Shown here: positions 4,186 through 30,183 of the stretch, piece by piece
How positions within the stretch are numbered: the first letter of the stretch is position 1
Layout of the letters: each line of letters opens with the position of its first letter
DNA from: Gaiellaceae bacterium
Lineage (GTDB): Bacteria; Actinomycetota; Thermoleophilia; Gaiellales; Gaiellaceae
Length of the DNA stretch: 30,960 nucleotides
Assembly (NCBI GenBank): GCA_035702555.1
Contig: DASSQK010000017.1
Span: 1-30,960, forward strand
Reading direction: 5' to 3'
Translations under genes and position numbers: made by a program
Notes under the pieces: model-generated
Told to the model about the DNA's origin: nothing
What the model saw: the letters and a program-made list of their open reading frames with translations, nothing else
The model's database searches: none

Positions 4186-5616
4186 ATGCGCTCGCGGATC
4201 TTCGCGGAGGAGAACAGGAAGTGGTGGACGCTGGGGTCGCTCTGCTTCGCCCTGTTCATGATCATGCTCGACAACACCGTCGTGAACGTCGCGCTCCCGG
4301 CGATCAAGGCCGACCTCGGCATCAGCACCTCTGAGCTCGAGTGGACGGTCGCGGCCTACGCCCTCACCTTCGCGTCGCTCCTGCTCACCGGCGGCAAGCT
4401 GGGCGACCTGCTCGGTCGGCGGTTGATCTTCGTGATCGGCCTCACGATCTTCACCCTCTCTTCGCTCGCCTGCGGCCTCTCCTCGAGCGCACCCGAGCTG
4501 ATCGGGGCCCGTGCGGTCCAGGGAATCGGCGCCGCGCTGATGATGCCGGCGACGCTCTCGATCATCTCGGCGACGTTCGCGGTGCGCGAGCGCGGCACCG
4601 CGATCGGCATCTGGGCCGGCGTCTCGGCGATGGCGCTCGCGATCGGGCCGCTGCTCGGCGGGCTGATCACCGAGCACATCTCGTGGAACTGGATCTTCTA
4701 CGTCAACGTCCCGATCGGCGTGCTCGCCGTCGTGTCGGCGTTCGTGGTCGTCCCGGAGTCGCGCGACACTTCGCACGAGCAGCGGCTCGACCTCCCCGGC
4801 CTGCTGACGTCCGGGGTCGGCCTCTTCGCGCTCGTCTACGCGCTGATCGAGGCAAACAACTACGGCTGGGGATCAGCTCGCATCCTCGGCCTGTTCGTGG
4901 TGGCCGTGGTCTGCCTGAGCGCCTTCGTGCTCCTCGAGCTGCATCAGCGCCTGCCGCTCCTCGACCTCTCGCTCTTCCGCAGCGGAACTTTCGCCGGCGC
5001 GAACCTGGTCGCGATCCTCGTCACGCTGGCGATGTTCGGGATCTTCGTCTTCTTCCCGATCTACATGCAGACCTTCCGCGGCTGGTCGCCGACCCAGGCC
5101 GGCGCGGCGCTGCTGCCGTGGACGCTGATGGTCGTGATCTTCGCCCCGATCGCCGGGAAACTCTCGGACCACGTCGGCTCGCGCTGGCTGATCTCCGGCG
5201 GGATGTCGGTCGTCGCGATCTGCTGCCTCTGGCTCTCGACCGTGACGGTGGACTCGTCCTTCTGGCACATGCTTCCCGGCTTCATCCTCGGCGGCCTCGG
5301 GATGTCGTTCGTGATGACGCCGATGTCCGCGGCGGCGATGGGCGCAGCCCCGGTCGCCAAGGCCGGCGTCGCGTCCGGCGTCCTGAACACGTTCCGCCAG
5401 GTCGGCGTCGCGCTCGGAATCGGGATCACGGGCGCGATCGTCGCGAACCGTGCGGCTGCGTACGGCAGCCCGCCGCCGCAGGCGTTCGTCTACGGCCTCA
5501 CCTTCGCCATGAAGGTCAGCGCAGGGATCTGCCTCGGCGGCGCGATCGCGGCAGCAGTCCTGATCCGCCGCTACCGCCACGCCGAGTCGAGCCAGCCCGC
5601 CGAAGTAGCCGCGTAA
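4186..5616 (+). CDS. DHA2-type (EmrB/QacA family) MFS efflux transporter
   Basis: MIMLDNTVVNVALP motif, GKLGDLLGRR (motif A), GPLLGG, many hydrophobic segments. ATG 4186 has TACCTT 6 nt upstream. Confidence 0.92.
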   Translation: MRSRIFAEENRKWWTLGSLCFALFMIMLDNTVVNVALPAIKADLGISTSELEWTVAAYALTFASLLLTGGKLGDLLGRRLIFVIGLTIFTLSSLACGLSSSAPELIGARAVQGIGAALMMPATLSIISATFAVRERGTAIGIWAGVSAMALAIGPLLGGLITEHISWNWIFYVNVPIGVLAVVSAFVVVPESRDTSHEQRLDLPGLLTSGVGLFALVYALIEANNYGWGSARILGLFVVAVVCLSAFVLLELHQRLPLLDLSLFRSGTFAGANLVAILVTLAMFGIFVFFPIYMQTFRGWSPTQAGAALLPWTLMVVIFAPIAGKLSDHVGSRWLISGGMSVVAICCLWLSTVTVDSSFWHMLPGFILGGLGMSFVMTPMSAAAMGAAPVAKAGVASGVLNTFRQVGVALGIGITGAIVANRAAAYGSPPPQAFVYGLTFAMKVSAGICLGGAIAAAVLIRRYRHAESSQPAEVAA

Positions 5617-5620
5617 AACC

Positions 5621-5663
5621 AAAAGAAAAGCCCCCGGCTGCGGCTCCGGGGGCTTCTGATTTT
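5621..5663. terminator. Bidirectional intrinsic terminator
   Basis: 10-bp perfect stem AAGCCCCCGG (5628-5637) / CCGGGGGCTT (5646-5655). Flanked by AAAAGAAA on the left (U-tract for the minus strand) and CTGATTTTT on the right (weaker U-tract for the plus strand). Confidence 0.85.
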
Positions 5664-5797
5664 TGCGGGCCTTGCTGAGAGGCGACGACCCGGAGGCCTT
5701 GGCTCTGCGGCCCAGCCACAACCTCCGGGCCATCGTCGCCTTTCTTTGGCGCGCCCCTTGCATCCCCTAAGCCTGGCGTCCGGCTGGGCTGCAAGGT
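5621..5797 (-). ncRNA. Candidate structured non-coding RNA, family not recognised
   Basis: Lies between a TTGACT-N17-TATAGT promoter and a U-tailed terminator on the same strand. Contains two hairpins and no ORF that stops before the terminator. The 5' end is estimated. Confidence 0.55.
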
Positions 5798-5803
5798 GGA
5801 CGG

Positions 5804-5832
5804 ACTATAGACCCGCCTCCGGGATCAGTCAA
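5804..5832 (-). promoter_or_regulatory. Sigma70/HrdB-type promoter (-35 TTGACT, 17 nt, -10 TATAGT)
   Basis: Plus-strand AGTCAA at 5827-5832 and ACTATA at 5804-5809, spacer exactly 17 nt. Confidence 0.8.
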
Positions 5833-5927
5833 GTACCTCGGTCAAGTGATTTTCGAACAAGGAAGTTGACCCGTTTTTCGCTGAAACATGACCAATTTGA
5901 GGGATATCGCACAACGGTCCCTTGCGC

Positions 5928-5953
5928 CGAAGTGAAGTATTCGTTTCACTTCG
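5928..5953 (+). promoter_or_regulatory. Perfect 9-bp inverted repeat (operator or 5'UTR hairpin) next to the RBS of the HTH-TPR gene
   Basis: CGAAGTGAA (5928-5936) - 8 nt - TTCACTTCG (5945-5953); AGGAG RBS at 5956-5960. Confidence 0.5.
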
Positions 5954-5964
5954 CCAGGAGTCGT

Positions 5965-7314
5965 ATGCCCCGCGCTTCAGTAACGCATCAGATCCGCACC
6001 GCCGCCACCCCGGGCAGCGCCCGGCTGGGCGAGCGCGTGCGGCAGCTGCGGGTCGCGGCCGGCCTCACGCAGACCGATCTCGCCGGCGACCGGTTCTCCA
6101 AGGAATACGTCAGCCAGATCGAGCGCGGAAAGACCAGGCCCACGCGCGAGACGATCGAGTGGCTGGCCGCGAAGCTCGGCGTCGATGCCGCCTTCCTCGA
6201 GAAGGGCGTCTCCGCCGACGAGCGCAGCCGGGTCGAGGCGATGCTCGCGCGCGCGGAGGCGCTCGCGAACAACCACCAGTACGCCGAGGCGGTCGAGGAG
6301 CTCGAGAGCTCCCGCACCGCCGTCCTCGCGACCGGCGCCGTCGAGCTCGAGGTTCGCGCGCTGCAGACCGAGGCGTGGGCGCGGATGGAGCAGGGCCAGC
6401 TCCGGCCGGCGCTGCAGCTGCTGGAGCGCTGCCGCACGTTCGCCGAGGGGCCCGGCTTCTCGGATGTCGACCGCGCGCAGGTGCTCTTCCGCATGGGCGT
6501 CTGCCGGTACCACCTCTCGAGCATCGCGTCGGCGGTCTCGCTCTTCAGCGAAGCCCTGAAGCTGGCCGAGGCCTCGCAGCTCCCCTGTGACCTGCTGCGC
6601 GGCGACATTCTCGGCTGGCGCTCCCGGTGCTACCGCCGGCAGCGCGACTTCGAGGCCGCGCGCGAGGACGTCGAGCGCGCGCTCGAGCTGGCGCAGGCGC
6701 TGGACGACCACCGCACGATGGCGAACGTCTACTTCCAGGCCTCGCTCGTCGCCGAGCGAATGGGCCACTGGGTGCTCGCGCGCAGCTATGCGGAGCGGGC
6801 GAAGGCCTACTACGAGCAGATCAACGACGAGCGGAACGTCGGCCGCCTGCTGAACAACCTCGGCGGCCTGAACTTCCAGCTCGGGAAGCCGGATCGCGCC
6901 GTCGAGGATCTGAAGAGCGCGTACCGCGTGCTGCTCGACAAGGGCAGCGACGCCGAGGCGGCCAACGTCGTCTCGTCGCTCGCACACGTGCACCTGGCGA
7001 CGGGCCAGGTGGAGGCGGCCGAGGAGGAGGCGCGTCACGCGCTCGACCTGCTCGAAGGCCGCGAAGACTTCCTGCTCGACATCGCTCCGACCCAGCTGGT
7101 GCTGGGGCGAGCGCTGATGGAGCAGGGACGCCTCGACGAGGCGCAGGAGATGCTGCGCACCGCCGAGGCAAGCGCAGAGCAGCTGGAATCGATCAGCCAC
7201 CGCGCCGCCGCGTGGATGGCACAGGGCGACCTCGCCGCCCGCCTGGGCGAGGATGCGACGGCCGCGCGCCTATACCGCAAGGCCGCCGAAGCTCTCCAGG
7301 ATGTCCGCTTCTAA
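5965..7314 (+). CDS. XRE-family HTH + TPR-repeat transcription regulator (RRNPP-like architecture), 449 aa
   Basis: N-terminal HTH LGERVRQLRVAAGLTQTDLAGDRFSKEYVSQIERGKTRPT, followed by repeated TPR-like helix pairs (e.g. GRLLNNLGGLNFQLGKPDRAVEDLKSAY). ATG 5965 with AGGAG 4 nt upstream. Confidence 0.92.
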   Translation: MPRASVTHQIRTAATPGSARLGERVRQLRVAAGLTQTDLAGDRFSKEYVSQIERGKTRPTRETIEWLAAKLGVDAAFLEKGVSADERSRVEAMLARAEALANNHQYAEAVEELESSRTAVLATGAVELEVRALQTEAWARMEQGQLRPALQLLERCRTFAEGPGFSDVDRAQVLFRMGVCRYHLSSIASAVSLFSEALKLAEASQLPCDLLRGDILGWRSRCYRRQRDFEAAREDVERALELAQALDDHRTMANVYFQASLVAERMGHWVLARSYAERAKAYYEQINDERNVGRLLNNLGGLNFQLGKPDRAVEDLKSAYRVLLDKGSDAEAANVVSSLAHVHLATGQVEAAEEEARHALDLLEGREDFLLDIAPTQLVLGRALMEQGRLDEAQEMLRTAEASAEQLESISHRAAAWMAQGDLAARLGEDATAARLYRKAAEALQDVRF

Positions 7315-7332
7315 GCCAAAGAAGGAGGTGAA

Positions 7333-7458
7333 ATGAACAAGGCTCGCCTGATCTCCCTGACGGTCACCCTCTCCATGCTGGCCTTCTACCTCGAGGGCTT
7401 CGCCCGCGGCTGCGGTTTCTTCTTTGGCCACGGCGGCAGCTGGTTCGACGGGCACTAG
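7333..7458 (+). CDS. 41-aa small peptide with signal-peptide-like N-terminus; putative signalling pro-peptide (not in ORF track)
   Basis: RBS AAGGAGGTG ends 2 nt before ATG 7333; stop TAG 7456-7458. Sequence MNKARLISLTVTLSMLAFYLEGFARGCGFFFGHGGSWFDGH. Mostly G/C third codon positions; downstream hairpin. Confidence 0.8.
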   Translation: MNKARLISLTVTLSMLAFYLEGFARGCGFFFGHGGSWFDGH

Positions 7459-7467
7459 GAACCCACA

Positions 7468-7509
7468 GGCGCGTTCGGGGCGGGGTCTACCAGGCTCCGA
7501 ACGCCCGCC
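7468..7509 (+). terminator. Hairpin after the peptide gene (possible terminator or stabiliser, no U-tract)
   Basis: GCGTTCGGGGC (7471-7481) pairs with GCTCCGAACGC (7494-7504): 11 bp with one G-U. Confidence 0.45.
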
Positions 7510-7601
7510 GGAAGCGGTCGACGCGCTCCTGCTCAGAGCATCACGGCCTCTCCGTCGCCCAGCAGCCTTTCGGGGGGCACCACCCAGCTAGACTCGGCCA
7601 C

Positions 7602-8489
7602 GTGGGCCGTCTTTTCGCTGTCCTTTTCGCGACAGCGGCTCTCTCCGCCGCCTGCGGCGGCTCTCACGCGTCCGGGGACAGGTCGCTCGACGCGATCCTG
7701 AAGCGTCCGGGGCCGATGGTCGGGATCACGGCCGGGGCGTCGCAGTTCGTCCCGGGCGCCGTCCGCTACCCGTTCCTCGTCATCCGCAACGACGCGAGGC
7801 CCGTGTACCGGCCGGCTGCGACGGTCTGGGTCGCGAAGAGCCGCTCGGAAACGCCCTTCGAGCGTGCGACCGCACGCCTCGAGCCGATCGGCGTCCCGGG
7901 GCGTTCCGCCCCGGCCTTCGGCGGCGTGACGAAGCTGTATGTCGCGCACCTGCGGATCCCGCGCCCGGGGCGCTACTGGCTGGTCGCGCAGCCGCGCGGT
8001 GCGCACATCCAGGGGCTCGGCACGCTCGATGTCGCCGCGCGCTCGAGCAGCGTCGCCGTCGGCGCGAAGGCGCCGCGCTCGGAGAATCCGACGCTCGCGA
8101 CCGCGCCGGCGGCTCGAATCACGACCAGCCGGCCGCCCGACCTGCCGCTCCTGCGCCACTCGATCGCGGGCTCGCTCGCCGCGCACCGGCCGTTCGTGGT
8201 CACGTTCGCCACGCCGAAGTTCTGCACCAGCCGCACGTGCGGGCCGGTCGTGGACGTGGTCGAGTCCGTCCGCCGCCGCTTCGAGCGCCGCGGGATCCGG
8301 TTCATCCACGTCGAGGTCTTCACCGGGAACGACCCCAACCGCGGCTTCAACCGCTGGATGCGCGAGTGGGGCCTCGCGAGCGAGCCGTGGGTGTTCCTCG
8401 TCGGCGCGGACGGGCGCGTGAAGGCGAAGTTCGAGGGCTCCGTCTCGGAGGCGGAGCTCGCCGCGGCAGTGCGCGCGAAGCTGCTCTAG
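7602..8489 (+). CDS. Predicted lipoprotein with C-terminal thioredoxin-like domain (CX4C)
   Basis: Signal peptide with lipobox LSAAC; TPKFCTSRTCGP; EPWVFLVGADGRVKAKFEG resembles the C-terminal strands of a Trx fold. TAGACT 7 nt before GTG. Confidence 0.82.
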   Translation: MGRLFAVLFATAALSAACGGSHASGDRSLDAILKRPGPMVGITAGASQFVPGAVRYPFLVIRNDARPVYRPAATVWVAKSRSETPFERATARLEPIGVPGRSAPAFGGVTKLYVAHLRIPRPGRYWLVAQPRGAHIQGLGTLDVAARSSSVAVGAKAPRSENPTLATAPAARITTSRPPDLPLLRHSIAGSLAAHRPFVVTFATPKFCTSRTCGPVVDVVESVRRRFERRGIRFIHVEVFTGNDPNRGFNRWMREWGLASEPWVFLVGADGRVKAKFEGSVSEAELAAAVRAKLL

Positions 8490-8490
8490 T

Positions 8491-8657
8491 CAGGAGACTT
8501 CGGCGAAACAGTGACGAGGCTCCGGGGCCGCGCTGCTCGCCCCGACGCTGCGTCCTCAGTCGCGCCCGTACCTTCCAGGTACGAACGCTCCCTGCGTCCT
8601 TGCCTCGGAACGAGCATCGCGACCCCAGAGCGTGCACCGTTCCGCCAAAGCCTCCTG
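8491..8657. repeat. 167-bp palindromic element (MITE/REP-like) with imperfect terminal inverted repeats
   Basis: Ends 8491-8509 and 8639-8657 match 16/19 as inverted repeats. Inner arms 8519-8539 and 8611-8631 match 18/21. Central CGTACCT-tcc-AGGTACG hairpin; CTGCGTCCT occurs twice. No target-site duplication seen. Confidence 0.65.
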
Positions 8658-8695
8658 CGTTTCTTAGCCCCCCGCGCGCGGGGAGGAAGAAGCAC

Positions 8696-10288
8696 ATGCC
8701 CCCGGCGATGCAGCGCATGCGCCGCGCGCGCGAGGTGGTGGGCGTCGCGCGGCAACGCAAGCTGGTCCGCGTGCTGCGCGAGCTCGGCGTCGCGGGGATG
8801 CGGCCCGCCACCCGCGAAGGCGCGGTCGAGTTCCGCCAGGCGCTCGAGGATCTCGGCACGACCTTCGTGAAGCTCGGCCAGCTCCTCTCGTCCCGCCCCG
8901 ACCTGCTCCCCGACGCCTACATCGAGGAGCTTTCGAAGCTCGTCGACGAGGCGCAGCCGGTGCCGTTCGAGGAGATCGAGCGAATCGTGCGGGAAGACCT
9001 GGGGAGCGACGTCGTCGGGCGGCTGGAGCACGCGCCGCTCGCGGCCGCCTCGATCGCGCAGACGCACGTCGCCCTGCTCGCCGACGGACGGGACGTCGTC
9101 CTCAAGGTGCGCAGGCCGGGAGTCGTCGAGCAGGTCGACCTCGACCTGCGGCTGGTGGCCTCGGCGGTCGAGTTCCTCGAGAAGCATTTCGAGACGGCGC
9201 AGCTGCTCCAGCTGCGCGCGCTGGCGGACGAGCTCGAGGTCCACCTGCGCGCGGAGCTCGACTTCGTCGAGGAGGCGCACAACACCGAGCTGATCGCCGG
9301 CCTCCTCGGCGGGCAGGAGGAGCTGGTCGTGCCGACGGTGATCCGGCCGCACGTGACGGAGCGCGTGCTCGTGCTCGAGCGGATCCACGGCCGCAAGCTC
9401 GGCGCCGACCACGGCCTGCCGCCCGAGCGGGCCGAGCTCCTGGCCGTCTCGTTCTTCCGCGCCTACATCCGCCAGGTGACGCAGGCGGGCATCTACCACG
9501 CCGACCCGCATCGCGGGAACGTGCTGCTGACGGAGGACGGACGGCTCGCGCTGCTCGACTTCGGCCTGCTCGGCCGGCTCGACGACGAGACGCGCACGAT
9601 GCTCGCCCTCCTGCTGCTCTCGCTCGCGCACAACCGCGCCGAGGACGTGGCCTCGGTGCTGCTCTCGCTCTCGCTGACCACGCTCGACTCCGACGAGCCC
9701 AGCTTCGTCCACGAGCTCCGGCGGAAGCTGCCGCGCTACCACTGGCGGCCGCTGGCGGGGATCCGTTCCGGCGAGGCGCTCGCCGACCTGCAGCGCATCT
9801 GCCTCCGCTACGGCGTCAGGCTGCCCGCCAGCTTCGCGCTCGTCGGCAAGACGCTCTCCCAGGCCGACTCGATCGCGCGCACGCTCGACCCCGGGCTCGA
9901 CCCGATCGCGCTGATCGAGGAGGAGTCGCTCGAGCTGATGCTGGCCGAGGTCGAGGCGCGGCTCGAGCCGAACCAGCTCTTCAGCATGCTGTTCATGCAG
10001 CTCGGCTCGCTCTCGCGGCTCCCACGCCGCCTCTCGCAGATCGCCGACCGGCTCGAGACGGGGACGCTGAAGGTCGGCATCGTCCCGACCGACCTCGGTC
10101 GCACCGAGCACATGCTGCGGTCGCTCGGCAACCGGCTCGGCTTCGCGCTGATCGTCGTCGGCCTGCTCATCTCCTCGGCGTTGATGGCGCGCGTGAACCA
10201 CACCGTCGCGCTGGTGGGGTTCCTGCTCGCGGCCGTGCTCGGCCTCTACATGATCTGGCGGATCATCCGGACGCCCGGCGACCTGTGA
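8696..10288 (+). CDS. ABC1/UbiB/AarF-family atypical kinase
   Basis: LGTTFVKLGQLLSSRPDLL (KxGQ), AAASIAQTH, VVLKVRRP, ELDFVEEA, YHADPHRGN, LLDFG, C-terminal membrane hairpin. GGAGG RBS before ATG 8696. Confidence 0.92.
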   Translation: MPPAMQRMRRAREVVGVARQRKLVRVLRELGVAGMRPATREGAVEFRQALEDLGTTFVKLGQLLSSRPDLLPDAYIEELSKLVDEAQPVPFEEIERIVREDLGSDVVGRLEHAPLAAASIAQTHVALLADGRDVVLKVRRPGVVEQVDLDLRLVASAVEFLEKHFETAQLLQLRALADELEVHLRAELDFVEEAHNTELIAGLLGGQEELVVPTVIRPHVTERVLVLERIHGRKLGADHGLPPERAELLAVSFFRAYIRQVTQAGIYHADPHRGNVLLTEDGRLALLDFGLLGRLDDETRTMLALLLLSLAHNRAEDVASVLLSLSLTTLDSDEPSFVHELRRKLPRYHWRPLAGIRSGEALADLQRICLRYGVRLPASFALVGKTLSQADSIARTLDPGLDPIALIEEESLELMLAEVEARLEPNQLFSMLFMQLGSLSRLPRRLSQIADRLETGTLKVGIVPTDLGRTEHMLRSLGNRLGFALIVVGLLISSALMARVNHTVALVGFLLAAVLGLYMIWRIIRTPGDL

Positions 10289-27450: not shown

Positions 27451-28302
27451 CTAGGCGGCGCGCGTCTTGGGCAACGGCACGAGGCCCTGGGCGTACGCCT
27501 GCAGCAGGTAGACGCTCGCGAGCCCATTCCACTCACCGTACGGCGCGAGCAGCTCGACCGTCTCCCACCCCTCGACCCAGCGGCCGCGCAGCGCGGAGAG
27601 CAGCTTGATCAGCCCGAGGTCTGCCACGAGCCCGCGGTCGTAGCGGCCGAGCCCTTCGAGGAAGACGACGCCGACCGACCAGGGGCCGAGCCCACGCTCC
27701 CGCAGCAGGCGCTCCGCGGGCGCGTCGCCCGACACGGCGCGGAGCCGCTCGAGCTCCAGCGAACGGCAGATCCGCACGAGCGCTGCGCCGCGGCGCGTGC
27801 CCAGGCCGAGCCGCCGCAGCTCCGCGGGGGCCAGCCGGCCGAGGGTCGCGCAGTCGGGCGGCGCGTGCAGCCGGGTCCCGGCGAGCGGCGGCATCAGCGC
27901 CCGGATCACCCGGCGCTCGATCTGGCGCGCGTGCCGCGCCTGGATCAGCTGACCGCACACCGCGCGGAGCAGCGACTGTGCGACCGTCGAGGTTCGCAGC
28001 GGCCGCAGCCCGCGCAGGCGACGCGTGGCCTCGCCGATGAGCGGGTCGCGGGCGAACCGGCGCAGGAACTCCCGATGGTCGTGGTCGAGCGCGAGCACGA
28101 ACCGCAGCTCGTCGATCCCCGCGTCGTGCGGCGCGCGGAGCTGGACGACGCCGTCGGCCTGCTGCCACGCCCGGCCGGCGCCGCCGCTCGCCAGGGCCGC
28201 GACGAGCACGCCGTCGACGTTGGTGCGGGTCGCGTCGCTCCCGGCGCGGAGGGTGTCGCGGAGTGAGTACGGGCCGCGCGGCCGGACCGCGGCCGCGATC
28301 AC
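27451..28302 (-). CDS. AlkA-like HhH-GPD DNA glycosylase
   Basis: LLRAVCGQLI, RGLGPWS helix-hairpin-helix, VADLGL (catalytic Asp position). GTG overlaps the upstream stop (GTGA at 28299-28302). Confidence 0.85.
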   Translation of the reverse strand: MIAAAVRPRGPYSLRDTLRAGSDATRTNVDGVLVAALASGGAGRAWQQADGVVQLRAPHDAGIDELRFVLALDHDHREFLRRFARDPLIGEATRRLRGLRPLRTSTVAQSLLRAVCGQLIQARHARQIERRVIRALMPPLAGTRLHAPPDCATLGRLAPAELRRLGLGTRRGAALVRICRSLELERLRAVSGDAPAERLLRERGLGPWSVGVVFLEGLGRYDRGLVADLGLIKLLSALRGRWVEGWETVELLAPYGEWNGLASVYLLQAYAQGLVPLPKTRAA

Positions 28303-29627
28303 CAGGCGCCGCGGGAGTCGGCGCCGACCGGCTCGGCGGCGAGGTCTGCGGCCTTCTCGAGCACCTCGAGCGCCTCGTTCTCGCGGCCTGCGCGGCGGAG
28401 GAACTTCCCCCAGGCCCGGTAAGCCTCGACGTAGTCGCGCCGGTGGCTCTGCTCCGCGAGCAGCCCCGTCGCCCGGCGGAACGCGTCGTCGGCGGCGTCC
28501 GCGTCCCCGGCGAGCGCGAGCCCCTCCGCGAGCGCCCAGATCGCGTTGCCCTGCTCGCGCGGGTGGTCGTCGCCGACCGCGTTCAGCGCAGCGCCGGCAC
28601 GGCGGACGGCTTCCTCGCCGTCGCCGAGCGCGACCGCGCGCCTGGCCTGGTCGGTGTAGAGGCTTGCGACGTCGACCGCTTCGGCGCTCGTTCCGAACAG
28701 CCGCTCCGCCAGGTCGAAGTGCCGCCCGGCCGCGTCGGCCCGGCCGTGGGTCATCTGGATGTCGCCGCAGAGGAGGTGGGCCCGCGCGAGGTCGAGCGTG
28801 TCGTCGGTGGCCGCGAGCAAGGCGATCGCCCGCCGCGCGTAGTCGAGCGCGGCCGCCGGCCGTCCCTGCGCGTCATGGTGCCGCGCGAGCGAGCGGTACA
28901 GCCGGACGCGCGCGTACGCATCCGTCAGCTCGTCGGCGGCGTCGAGCGCCGCGTCGAGGACGGATTGCGCCCGCTCCAGGTCGTTGAGCTCGGCGAGTAC
29001 GTGGCCGAGGTGGCTCGTGAGGCGAACCCGGGCCGCGAGGTCCTCGGGCGCCTCGGCGACCTCCTCGAGGCAGCGCTCGTAGAGCTCGACCGCCTGCTCC
29101 GGCCGGCCGGTCGCCGCGTAGGCGCGACCGAGCGCGGCGAAGACGTCGGGGCGGGCGGCGGCCGAGACCGGTGTCGACTCCAGGCCCGCCTCGAGCCGCT
29201 CGATCGCCTCGGTGTCCCTGCCCGCCGCCGCCGCGGCCAGCCCGAGCGCGAGGTGTGCGCGCGACGATGCGACGGTGTCGCCCGCTGCGGCCGCGTCGTC
29301 GCGGAGCCGCTCGAGGGCACCCTCGGCCTGCGCCGGGTCACCGCCGAGCCGCAGCTCCAGCTCCGCATCGGCGATCCGGAGCTCGCGCTCGTCCACGTCG
29401 CGCATCTCGGAGCCAGTCTCGAGGTAGTCCGCGGAGACGCCGAGCTTGCGGCCGAGCATGCGCAGCGCCTTCACCGACGGGCGGCGCGCGCCGGCCTCGA
29501 TGCGCGAGATGTACGCGTACGAGACGCCCGGGCTTGCGAGCTCGCGCTGAGACAGCCCACGTTCGTGCCGCAGGCGCCGCAGACGCTGGCCGATGGACTC
29601 GGCCAGTTCCTCGGGGGGAGGAACCAC
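28299..29627 (-). CDS. Second XRE-HTH + TPR regulator (start GTG 29627, or ATG 29636)
   Basis: IGQRLRRLRHERGLSQRELASPGVSYAYISRIEAGARRPS HTH plus TPR-like repeats. TTGACG-N17-CAAGAT promoter puts the predicted TSS at GTG 29627. Confidence 0.9.
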   Translation of the reverse strand: MVPPPEELAESIGQRLRRLRHERGLSQRELASPGVSYAYISRIEAGARRPSVKALRMLGRKLGVSADYLETGSEMRDVDERELRIADAELELRLGGDPAQAEGALERLRDDAAAAGDTVASSRAHLALGLAAAAAGRDTEAIERLEAGLESTPVSAAARPDVFAALGRAYAATGRPEQAVELYERCLEEVAEAPEDLAARVRLTSHLGHVLAELNDLERAQSVLDAALDAADELTDAYARVRLYRSLARHHDAQGRPAAALDYARRAIALLAATDDTLDLARAHLLCGDIQMTHGRADAAGRHFDLAERLFGTSAEAVDVASLYTDQARRAVALGDGEEAVRRAGAALNAVGDDHPREQGNAIWALAEGLALAGDADAADDAFRRATGLLAEQSHRRDYVEAYRAWGKFLRRAGRENEALEVLEKAADLAAEPVGADSRGAW

Positions 29628-29694
29628 CGAGTTCATCTTGACCACGCCCCGGGACACCGTCAATTTCGAGCCGTCAGTCGCTATCGTCGCGGGG

Positions 29695-30183
29695 GTGAGC
29701 ATCGATTCGCGCGTCGATATCGGGCACGTGCACCTGAAGGTCTCGGACATCGACGCCGCGCTCGCCTTCTACCGCGACGTCCTCGGCTTCGACGTGATGC
29801 AGCGCATGGGCGACCAGGCAGCGTTCATCTCGGCCGGCGGCTACCACCACCATCTCGGGCTGAACACGTGGGAGTCGCGAGGCGGCTCGGCGCCCCCACC
29901 CGGGACGACCGGGCTCTACCACGTCGCCATCCGCTACCCGGACCGGGCGCAGCTCGGCGACGCGCTGCGGCGGCTCGTGGAGGCGCGCTGGCCGATCGAC
30001 GGCGCGACCGACCACGGCGTCTCCGAGGCGATCTACCTGCGCGACCCCGACGGCAACGGGATCGAGCTCTACCGCGACCGGCCCCAGGAGGAGTGGCCGC
30101 GAGCCGGGGACGGGAAGAGCGTGGCGATGGTCAACGCGCCCCTCGATCTCGAGGCGCTGCTCGCCGAGGCTCCGGCTCCCTGA
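29695..30183 (+). CDS. VOC family protein (catechol 2,3-dioxygenase/CatE-like single domain)
   Basis: IGHVHLKVSD, GGYHHHLGLNTW, GLYHVAIRYP, DHGVSEAIYLRDPDGNGIELY. TATCGT 7 nt before GTG. Confidence 0.9.
   Translation: MSIDSRVDIGHVHLKVSDIDAALAFYRDVLGFDVMQRMGDQAAFISAGGYHHHLGLNTWESRGGSAPPPGTTGLYHVAIRYPDRAQLGDALRRLVEARWPIDGATDHGVSEAIYLRDPDGNGIELYRDRPQEEWPRAGDGKSVAMVNAPLDLEALLAEAPAP

What the first reader, a model, noticed from the sequence alone, without database searches (positions are those of the whole stretch)
5965..7509. RRNPP-like receptor plus cognate pro-peptide cassette: candidate peptide-signalling system in an actinobacterium
Seen: a 449-aa XRE-HTH+TPR protein. Only 18 bp after its stop there is a 41-codon ORF, absent from the track, with a full-consensus RBS (AAGGAGGTG), the strongest in the window. 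The ORF is closed by a hairpin. The peptide has a basic n-region (MNKAR), a hydrophobic h-region (LISLTVTLSMLAFYL) and a Gly/aromatic C-terminus. Established: HTH-TPR receptor plus an adjacent 35-50 aa secreted pro-peptide is the layout of NprR/NprX, PlcR/PapR and AimR/AimP, and Rap/Phr pairs a TPR receptor with a peptide in the same way. These are characterised mainly in Bacillota and their phages. Inference: this is a quorum-sensing-like receptor/peptide pair in a high-GC actinobacterial lineage, where I know of no characterised example. No Opp importer or processing protease is in the window.
Basis: partly seen in the sequence, partly recalled or inferred. Interest (0 to 1): 0.88.

Follow-up and report, generated by a model that had tools for sequence, protein, structure and literature searches.

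The report
Peptide-signal-like regulator cassette in Gaiellaceae
An uncultured soil actinobacterium (Gaiellaceae) has a DNA-binding repeat-protein regulator followed by a real 41-codon gene for an export-type peptide; the layout matches peptide cell-to-cell signalling described so far only in Bacillus-type bacteria, but signalling itself is not shown.

Summary
Window 5965-7314 encodes a 449-aa XRE-HTH regulator with nine TPR repeats. A unique AAGGAGGTG Shine-Dalgarno site follows 18 nt after its stop, then a 41-codon ORF (7333-7458) and a hairpin.

The small ORF is a real gene. It follows the receptor in all 40 orthologous loci read, in two Gaiellales families. It also follows it in 77 (plus 2 frameshifted) of 79 further Gaiellaceae MAG loci. 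It is under purifying selection (dN/dS 0.19-0.32).

Its build is that of a propeptide:
- a basic N-terminus;
- a 14-16-residue hydrophobic core;
- a hypervariable linker;
- a near-invariant C-terminal tail, S-W-x-[DE]-G(-H).

Export, processing, re-import and binding are all untested. The complex prediction gave no answer.

A divergent conserved small RNA and a locus-specific repeat (GTCAAGT, 2-3 copies) belong to the module.

My reading is an RRNPP-like peptide-sensing cassette, with probability about 0.5. This scan has already reported the same module on at least ten other Gaiellales genomes. No paper in the searched library describes it.

The parts
5965..7314 (+). Receptor gene: 449-aa XRE-HTH plus nine-TPR regulator
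   Evidence: ORF and translation. Pfam HTH_31 and TPR families. AF2 model has pLDDT 90.7, with an HTH followed by 18 paired helices. Found in 35 of 36 genomes of the genus and 6 of 6 genomes of a second family.
6022..6204 (+). HTH DNA-binding domain (residues 20-80)
   Evidence: Pfam HTH_31 and HTH_3. PDB sequence hits to DdrOC, PlcR and ComR cover this part only. 25 columns are invariant across all lineages.
6214..7296 (+). TPR superhelix (residues 84-444), the putative ligand-binding domain
7322..7330 (+). Shine-Dalgarno site AAGGAGGTG of the small ORF
   Evidence: The only perfect copy in the window. A GGAGG site precedes the ATG in all orthologous loci.
7333..7458 (+). Small gene, 41 codons plus stop: n-region 7333-7347, hydrophobic core 7348-7392, variable linker 7393-7437, conserved tail 7438-7455
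   Evidence: Conserved in 40 of 40 loci, and in 77 intact plus 2 frameshifted of 79 further loci. dN/dS is 0.19-0.32. 45 clusters in public protein sets are all named 'hypothetical protein' where named at all. RNA-library contigs cover it.
7438..7455 (+). C-terminal hexapeptide S-W-F-D-G-H, the candidate mature signal
   Evidence: Conservation among 67 distinct genus-type peptides is S 96%, W 96%, F 100%, D 100%, G 100%, H 88%. The linker before it has 62 distinct forms of 7-24 residues. The core W-x-[DE]-G is kept in receptors down to 47% identity.
7468..7509 (+). GC-rich hairpin after the small ORF (likely terminator without a T-run)
   Evidence: Fold of -36 kcal/mol, z -1.5. Hairpins with matching changes on both arms occur in related loci.
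5928..5953 (.). Perfect palindrome CGAAGTGAA-N8-TTCACTTCG, ending 11 nt before the receptor ATG; candidate operator
   Evidence: In most relatives one arm reads GTCAAGT.
5825..5847 (+). Two direct copies of GTCAAGT, 13 nt apart. The first overlaps the -35 box of the divergent small-RNA promoter
   Evidence: [GA]TCAAGT occurs 110 times in 12.5 kb of receptor-upstream DNA from 38 loci, against 2 times in the other 146 kb of those loci. In the whole draft genome the only place with two copies within 80 nt is here.
5621..5832 (-). Divergently transcribed structured small RNA (context; third part of the conserved module)
   Evidence: Promoter TTGACT-N17-TATAGT and a terminator on the minus strand. 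Fold z -4.8. No Rfam family. Conserved next to the receptor in every family-f1 locus that holds enough upstream DNA. An analogous element with TTGACC-N17-TATGTT occurs in the second family.

Best explanation
This is a receptor-propeptide signalling cassette that works like the RRNPP systems of Bacillota.

Proposed sequence of events:
1. The receptor and the small gene are transcribed together from the intergenic region they share with a divergent small RNA.
2. The small ORF, with the strongest ribosome-binding site in the window, is translated into a 41-residue pre-peptide.
3. Its basic N-terminus and 15-residue hydrophobic core send it out of the cell. The route is Sec with signal peptidase, or a SHP/ComS-type exporter with a membrane protease.
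4. The hypervariable linker is trimmed away. A short C-terminal peptide ending in S-W-F-D-G-H is left.
5. At sufficient concentration the peptide is taken up by an oligopeptide permease.
6. It binds the concave groove of the nine-TPR domain.
7. Binding changes how the HTH domain binds the GTCAAGT repeats. This tunes the receptor-peptide operon and the divergent small RNA.

Shown: the genes, their linkage and conservation, the peptide's build, the receptor's fold, and the repeat motif.
Inferred: export, processing, uptake, binding, and the regulatory targets.
For: 1. The small gene is real and tied to the receptor.
   - It is present in 40 of 40 loci of two families whose receptors are down to 44% identical.
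   - It is present in 77 intact plus 2 frameshifted of 79 further species-level MAG loci.
   - In more distant subfamilies it stays adjacent after rearrangement. It lies 140-170 bp downstream with its own spacer, or convergent.
2. The conservation pattern is that of a propeptide.
   - The tail is 88-100% conserved, while 62 of 67 linkers are distinct and vary from 7 to 24 residues.
   - The uncharged core is 14-15 residues in most genus-type and f5 peptides (19-24 in a few) and 16-22 in the other subfamilies. That is signal-peptide length rather than membrane-helix length in most forms.
3. Purifying selection: dN/dS 0.19-0.32.
4. The receptor has the NprR build, an HTH plus nine TPRs.
   - The best Foldseek TM-scores are to peptide-bound Rap and to PlcR-PapR.
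5. Groove-lining A helices are the least variable part of the TPR domain.
6. Receptor and tail change together.
   - Two independent shifts of the tail from D-G to E-type coincide with changes at six otherwise conserved receptor sites: E136, S220, R221, F257, Q258, R294.
   - All six are on A helices (P = 0.016). The overlap exceeds chance (Fisher P = 0.04).
   - A third tail change (H to L) comes with four changes at the start of helix A5.
7. OppA-type binding proteins exist in the genome.
8. Contigs from four soil RNA libraries span the receptor 3' end, the small ORF and the hairpin.
Against: - No direct evidence exists for secretion, processing, uptake or binding.
- The complex prediction scored 0.01, which is no answer either way.
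- The TPR domain has no sequence match to any RRNPP receptor. Eukaryotic TPR proteins (APPBP2, APC subunits, LGN) match the model as well as NprR and Rap do.
- The cleavage region after the core is not a clean A-x-A site in most lineages.
- The co-variation rests on two to three events and was analysed post hoc. A tree-based independent-pairs test on 75 further pairs had no power.
- The tail is nearly invariant and the pair is a core, single-copy gene set. Most RRNPP systems are fast-diversifying and often mobile.
- One relative (L045) keeps only a 15-residue peptide without the hydrophobic core.
- RNA-library contigs cannot exclude DNA carry-over.
Confidence: 0.5

Rival explanations
1. Regulator and target only. 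The small gene encodes a tiny exported or membrane-anchored protein (MgrB-like modulator, bacteriocin-like or surface peptide). The HTH-TPR protein controls its transcription, but the peptide is not the ligand of the TPR domain, which senses something else.
For: The linkage and the strong ribosome-binding site fit a regulated target equally well. In the short subfamilies the uncharged stretch reaches 19-22 residues, enough for a membrane helix. With a basic N-terminus the conserved tail would face outward, where it could contact an extracellular partner. The complex prediction gave no support for binding.
Against: In most genus-type, f5 and P0123-clade peptides the core is only 14-16 residues and is flanked by charged or polar residues. 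The hypervariable linker next to an invariant tail is typical of a trimmed propeptide. Receptor A-helix sites change in parallel with the tail. Adjacency survives inversion and spacing changes.
Confidence: 0.25
2. Metal- or redox-linked envelope module. The peptide, often His-rich before the tail and ending in His, works outside the cell with the downstream thioredoxin-like lipoprotein. The regulator responds to that stress.
For: His/Gly-rich stretches recur next to the tail in several clades. In family f1 the next gene is a lipoprotein with a CxxxC motif. It resembles TlpA/SCO-type proteins, a language-model lead only (synteny).
Against: The lipoprotein is not adjacent in the second family, where dnaJ follows. 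His-richness is not conserved; most genus-type linkers hold one His or none. The invariant residues are W, D/E and G, not His.
Confidence: 0.07
3. Cytoplasmic partner. The small protein is not exported. It binds the TPR domain inside the cell as an anti-regulator or co-regulator.
For: One relative (L045) has a 15-residue version with the N- and C-termini but no hydrophobic core. TPR domains commonly bind short C-terminal tails.
Against: A basic n-region plus a Leu-rich core is conserved in more than 115 loci, which would be pointless for a cytoplasmic ligand. L045 is a single case and may be decay.
Confidence: 0.08
4. Translation-arrest or leader peptide. Its conserved C-terminus stalls ribosomes to control the downstream gene (SecM/MifM-like).
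For: A signal-like head plus a conserved C-terminal motif just before the stop is the build of secretion-monitoring arrest peptides.
Against: A hairpin follows the ORF. The downstream gene differs between families: a lipoprotein in one, dnaJ in the other. In two subfamily loci the small gene is convergent with the receptor, so it leads no gene.
Confidence: 0.03

Closest known systems
NprR-NprX (Bacillus cereus group; RRNPP family)
   Different: There is no sequence similarity in the TPR domain. The phylum is Actinomycetota. The candidate mature peptide is at the extreme C-terminus, whereas NprX is internal. It is a core gene pair with a near-invariant peptide, and a divergent small RNA is part of the module. 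Binding is untested.
PlcR-PapR (Bacillus cereus group; RRNPP family)
   Same: An HTH-TPR activator is followed by a small gene whose C-terminal 5-7 residues are the signal. A palindromic operator sits near the receptor's own promoter. The HTH matches at sequence level (E 7e-4), and Foldseek TMt is 0.65-0.67.
   Different: PlcR has five TPRs and about 285 aa. PapR tails diversify into pherotypes, whereas here the tail is almost fixed across a family.
Rgg-SHP and ComR-ComS (streptococci)
   Same: Very short pre-peptides (about 17-35 aa) are essentially a basic, hydrophobic head plus a C-terminal aromatic or acidic signal. The short subfamily forms here (28-34 aa) look alike. The ComR HTH matches at sequence level.
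   Different: Those receptors are about 300 aa with five TPR-like repeats. Export is by PptAB with Eep processing, and no such genes were examined here.
AimR-AimP-AimX (arbitrium system of Bacillus phages)
   Same: A three-part module: an HTH-TPR receptor, an adjacent propeptide with a C-terminal hexapeptide signal, and a small non-coding output transcript next to them.
   Different: Arbitrium is phage-borne and its peptide diversifies. Here the module is chromosomal and vertically inherited. The small RNA is divergent and upstream, and its regulation by the receptor is only inferred from shared GTCAAGT repeats.
Rap-Phr (Bacillus and its phages)
   Different: Rap proteins lack an HTH and act on response regulators.

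Membership tests
RRNPP peptide-sensing systems | Cytoplasmic receptor with a TPR-type peptide-binding domain | tested here: met
   Pfam TPR families. The AF2 model has nine helix pairs at pLDDT 90.7. The receptor has no signal peptide or membrane segment in the translation.
RRNPP peptide-sensing systems | N-terminal HTH output domain (PlcR, NprR, PrgX, Rgg, ComR, AimR types) | tested here: met
   HTH_31 and HTH_3 at residues 20-77. PDB sequence hits include the HTH of PlcR and of ComR.
RRNPP peptide-sensing systems | Adjacent small gene (about 15-65 codons) that co-occurs with the receptor | tested here: met
   40 of 40 loci, and 77 intact plus 2 frameshifted of 79 further loci. Peptide lengths are 28-50 aa.
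RRNPP peptide-sensing systems | The small protein is exported (Sec signal peptide or SHP-type export) | tested here: inconclusive
   An n-region with +2 or +3 charge and a 14-16-residue Leu-rich core are present. The -3/-1 cleavage pattern is weak in most lineages. No SignalP-type predictor was available.
RRNPP peptide-sensing systems | Maturation to a 5-10-residue peptide and re-import by an oligopeptide permease | not testable with these tools
   Indirect only: an invariant C-terminal hexapeptide after a hypervariable linker, and four OppA-type (PF00496) matches in the 63%-complete genome.
RRNPP peptide-sensing systems | The mature peptide binds the TPR groove and switches receptor activity | tested here: inconclusive
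   The complex prediction gave a score of 0.01, which is no answer. Parallel substitutions at six A-helix sites accompany two independent tail shifts (P 0.016 and 0.04). The independent-pairs test had no power.
RRNPP peptide-sensing systems | Common descent with known RRNPP receptors | tested here: inconclusive
RRNPP peptide-sensing systems | Occurrence in Bacillota or their mobile elements (range described so far) | tested here: not met
   Sources name the relatives as Gaiellaceae, Thermoleophilia or Actinomycetota. The large survey covered only Firmicutes and viruses (PMC10075063).

The most novel reading that the evidence does not exclude
This is a vertically inherited RRNPP-type circuit in Actinomycetota, present across two Gaiellales families. 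A cytoplasmic HTH-nine-TPR receptor senses a re-imported peptide ending in S-W-x-[DE]-G. Through GTCAAGT operators it controls a divergent small RNA as its main output. It would be the first cytoplasmic peptide-receptor quorum sensing outside Bacillota, and it would have arisen independently of the known RRNPP receptors.
Probability: 0.4. Interest if true: 0.85.

Novelty: new variant of a known kind. Interest (0 to 1): 0.72.

Why it matters
Actinomycetota are thought to signal with small molecules such as gamma-butyrolactones. Cytoplasmic-receptor peptide signalling (RRNPP) has been described and surveyed only in Bacillota and their phages and plasmids (PMC10075063).

Gaiellaceae are among the most abundant, barely cultured soil actinobacteria. 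A conserved receptor-peptide-small-RNA module in them would extend this signalling logic to a second phylum. It would also give a simple, synthesisable hexapeptide with which to probe the behaviour of an uncultured lineage. If the TPR domain is not homologous to RRNPP receptors, it would be a case of convergent evolution.

If instead the peptide is only a regulated envelope protein, the finding is still a new, widespread small-protein family with a dedicated regulator.

Tried and rejected
- Complex prediction of the TPR domain (85-449) with the 41-aa peptide scored 0.01. This is no answer, neither for nor against binding.
- Pfam, NCBIfam and the protein atlas gave nothing for the peptide.
- A PDB sequence search found only HTH matches.
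- Rfam found no family for the upstream RNA or anywhere in 5400-8800.
- The tree-based independent-pairs test of tail against receptor on 75 extra pairs had only one supported pair, so no power.
It was rerun with a single protein.
- Spurious ORF: rejected on conservation, the Shine-Dalgarno site and dN/dS.
- An 11-codon N-terminal extension called by some pipelines: rejected. The spacer length varies (15, 18, 19, 20, 21, 25 nt), so the extension is out of frame in many loci, this window included.
- Lipoprotein: rejected. The Cys after the core is not conserved.
The first unit lies in the hypervariable linker.
- GTCAAGT as a general promoter element: rejected. There are 57 genome-wide hits against about 66 expected, and the only two copies within 80 nt of each other are here.
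- Relatives at 30-34% identity (L046-L048, L056) show no such small ORF, so the pairing ends at about 40% identity. L048 comes from the unpublished genome G148 and is used only for this negative remark.
Full report
**What is there.** Window 5965-7314 (+) encodes a 449-aa protein. It has an XRE-type HTH (HTH_31, residues 20-76) and TPR repeats over residues 215-446. Its stop is at 7312-7314. AAGGAGGTG lies at 7322-7330 and is the only perfect copy in the window. The ATG at 7333 opens a 41-codon ORF ending at 7458. A GC-rich hairpin without a T-run follows at 7468-7509.

**Where it comes from.** The window is contig 17 of a 63%-complete MAG of 1.88 Mb. Sources name the closest proteins as Gaiellaceae or Thermoleophilia.

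**Is the small ORF a gene?** Yes.
- The receptor is found in 35 of 36 genomes of the same genus, mostly at 84-96% identity with one subclade at 65-68%. It is found in all six genomes of a second family of the order at 44-47% identity. It was not found in three other families.
- All 40 orthologous loci read have a GGAGG site and a 34-50-codon ORF shortly after the receptor stop.
- A second sweep with a 64%-identical relative gave 80 further species-level Gaiellaceae MAG loci. Of 79 that can be assessed, 77 have the ORF intact. Two, both from long-read assemblies, have it frameshifted.
- Pooled pairwise dN/dS in the genus is 0.32 for the N-terminal 19 codons and 0.19 for the C-terminal 7 codons. 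The receptor gives 0.16.
- The spacer between the receptor stop and the ATG varies (15, 18, 19, 20, 21, 25 nt). The 11-codon upstream extension that some pipelines call is therefore out of frame in many loci, including this one. The ATG after the Shine-Dalgarno site is the start.
- Public protein sets hold 45 clusters of this peptide. All are 'hypothetical protein' where named at all, and none has a Pfam family.
- Contigs from four soil metatranscriptome libraries cover the receptor 3' end, the small ORF and the hairpin. Examples are 7294-7521 without a mismatch and 7009-7700. This shows presence in RNA libraries, not proof of transcription.

**Build of the peptide.**
- The n-region carries two or three positive charges.
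- The uncharged, Leu-rich core is 14-15 residues in most genus-type and second-family peptides, and 19-24 in a few. In the P0123-related clade it is about 16 residues, read off the sequences.
- A linker follows, and then a tail.
- Among 67 distinct genus-type peptides the tail S-W-F-D-G-H is 96, 96, 100, 100, 100 and 88% conserved.
- The linker has 62 distinct forms of 7 to 24 residues.

**Tails in other lineages.**
- The neighbouring clade has S-W-[PS]-[DE]-G followed by H, N, S, L, T or Y and up to three more residues.
- More distant subfamilies (47-53% receptor identity) have 28-32-residue peptides ending in GG-[WF]-[FV]-D-G-[SH]. These lie 140-170 bp downstream or are convergent with the receptor.
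- The second family ends in G-F-H-[EQ]-W.

A conserved head, a free-running linker and a fixed C-terminal tail are what a trimmed propeptide looks like. The short core fits a signal peptide better than a membrane helix in most lineages. The short subfamily forms (19-22 uncharged residues) could span a membrane. No dedicated signal-peptide predictor was available.

**The receptor.** AlphaFold2 with a 32-sequence alignment gives pLDDT 90.7. The model has a disordered N-terminus (1-18), an HTH (20-80) and 18 helices forming nine TPR-like pairs.

Comparison with known structures:
- By sequence, only the HTH matches solved structures: DdrOC, PlcR and ComR.
- By Foldseek, generic TPR proteins lead by E-value. 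The highest TM-scores are to peptide-bound Rap of phage phi3T (TMq 0.58-0.61, TMt 0.70-0.74) and to PlcR-PapR (TMt 0.65-0.67).

So the receptor has the size and superhelical shape of the nine-TPR RRNPP receptors. That does not establish homology.

**Does the peptide bind the receptor?** This is not shown. The complex prediction (TPR domain plus the 41-residue peptide) scored 0.01, which the tool itself rates as no answer.

Indirect evidence:
1. In the main genus clade (29 loci), 32% of positions on the groove-lining A helices vary, against 48% on the B helices.
2. On the receptor tree the D-G tail is ancestral. It changed to an E-type tail twice independently, once in a 65-68% subclade of the genus and once in the second family.
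3. Of 136 receptor columns conserved in all D-G lineages, six changed in both E-type lineages: E136, S220, R221, F257, Q258 and R294.
4. All six lie on A helices of repeats 2, 4, 5 and 6. The probability of six out of six within the TPR domain is 0.016. The overlap of the two sets of changes exceeds independence (Fisher P = 0.04).
5. By the Pfam register, R221, F257 and R294 fall at TPR positions 9, 5 and 2. These usually face the concave side. This step is inference from general TPR knowledge.
6. A third tail change (last residue H to L) is accompanied by four clade-specific substitutions at the start of helix A5.

These are few events, examined post hoc. A tree-based independent-pairs test on 75 further pairs had only one supported pair and hence no power. 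I rate the co-variation as suggestive.

**The rest of the module.** Upstream of the receptor lies a divergent, strongly structured small RNA.
- It has a minus-strand promoter TTGACT-N17-TATAGT at 5832-5804 and a terminator at 5657-5626. Its fold z-score is -4.8 and it has no Rfam family.
- It is conserved next to the receptor in every family-f1 locus that holds enough upstream DNA.
- An analogous element with the same promoter layout sits upstream in the second family.

The motif [GA]TCAAGT links these parts.
- It occurs two or three times on the receptor strand in each of 38 upstream regions. That is 110 hits in 12.5 kb, against 2 hits in the remaining 146 kb of the same loci.
- In the draft genome the 7-mer is not enriched (57 hits against about 66 expected). 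The only place with two copies within 80 nt is here.
- One copy overlaps the -35 box of the small-RNA promoter.
- Another lies at the receptor promoter. In this window that copy forms a perfect palindrome, CGAAGTGAA-N8-TTCACTTCG, at 5928-5953.

I infer that these are the operators of the HTH domain, and that the small RNA and the receptor-peptide operon are its targets. This was not tested.

**Most likely mechanism and its rivals.**
- Best reading (probability about 0.5): an RRNPP-like loop. The pre-peptide is exported, the linker is trimmed, and a short peptide ending in the conserved tail is re-imported. OppA-type proteins exist in the genome. The peptide binds the TPR groove and changes binding of the HTH to the GTCAAGT sites.
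- Main rival (0.25): the small protein is only a regulated exported or membrane protein, and the TPR domain senses something else.
- Metal- or redox-linked envelope module with the downstream thioredoxin-like lipoprotein (0.07). The synteny holds only in one family.
- Non-exported cytoplasmic partner (0.08). This is prompted by one relative whose peptide lacks the hydrophobic core.
- Translation-arrest peptide (0.03). It is contradicted by the hairpin, the non-conserved downstream gene and the convergent arrangements.

**Comparison with the known.** The closest systems by function are NprR-NprX and PlcR-PapR. The short forms resemble Rgg-SHP and ComR-ComS. The three-part layout with a small RNA recalls AimR-AimP-AimX.

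The differences are:
- phylum Actinomycetota;
- no detectable TPR sequence homology to RRNPP receptors;
- a core, single-copy, vertically inherited gene pair;
- an almost invariant tail rather than diversifying pherotypes;
- a divergent small RNA as the probable output.

The large RRNPP survey analysed only Firmicutes and viruses and treats actinobacterial signalling as small-molecule based (PMC10075063). Full-text searches for RRNPP with Actinobacteria or Actinomycetota, and for Gaiellales with quorum sensing, found no description of such a system.

**Earlier findings of this scan.** The same module has been reported on at least ten other Gaiellales genomes, with the same reading. Those notes are not independent evidence. 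I re-derived the conservation, the small-RNA linkage and a version of the co-variation claim here.

**Verdict.** I class it as a new variant of a known kind of system. Interest is 0.72.

Noticed in passing
window 5621-5832 (-): A conserved, strongly structured RNA of about 180-210 nt. It has its own sigma-70-type promoter and terminator and no Rfam family. It is always divergent from the receptor in family f1, and an analogous element occurs in the second family.
   Followed up: partly
window 7602-8489 (+): A 295-aa lipoprotein (lipobox ...LSAACGG) with a CxxxC motif and no Pfam hit. Language-model look-alikes are TlpA/thioredoxin/SCO1-like proteins. It follows the peptide gene throughout family f1 but not in the second family.
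   Followed up: partly
L045 (G309), just after the receptor stop: This relative has only a 15-codon ORF. It keeps the basic N-terminus and the W-T-D-G-H tail but lacks the hydrophobic core. It is either decay or a non-exported variant.
   Followed up: no
L034-L039 and the locus of P0139: In the second family the small RNA, receptor and peptide sit between hrcA and dnaJ, inside the usual heat-shock gene pair. The receptor mRNA there looks leaderless, with TANNNT 6-8 nt before the ATG.
   Followed up: no
L002 (G000 contig C187, downstream of a 30%-identical HTH-TPR paralogue); also C121:13519 and C153:11857: The perfect palindrome AAGTAACAG-A-CTGTTACTT occurs twice within about 110 nt downstream of the paralogue. 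Similar copies occur on other contigs. It may be the operator of another regulator or a repeat element.
   Followed up: no
window 28299-29750 (-): A second HTH-TPR regulator (36% identical over the first 113 residues). No small peptide ORF follows it. Its stop overlaps the next gene.
   Followed up: no
L114, L131, L104: Two long-read MAG loci have the small ORF frameshifted, probably by homopolymer errors. One locus has lost the stop, so the tail S-W-P-D-G-R reads on.
   Followed up: partly
L028-L031: One subclade of the genus carries His/Gly/Asp-rich inserts (up to eight Gly in a row) in the linker, together with the tail change H to L.
   Followed up: no
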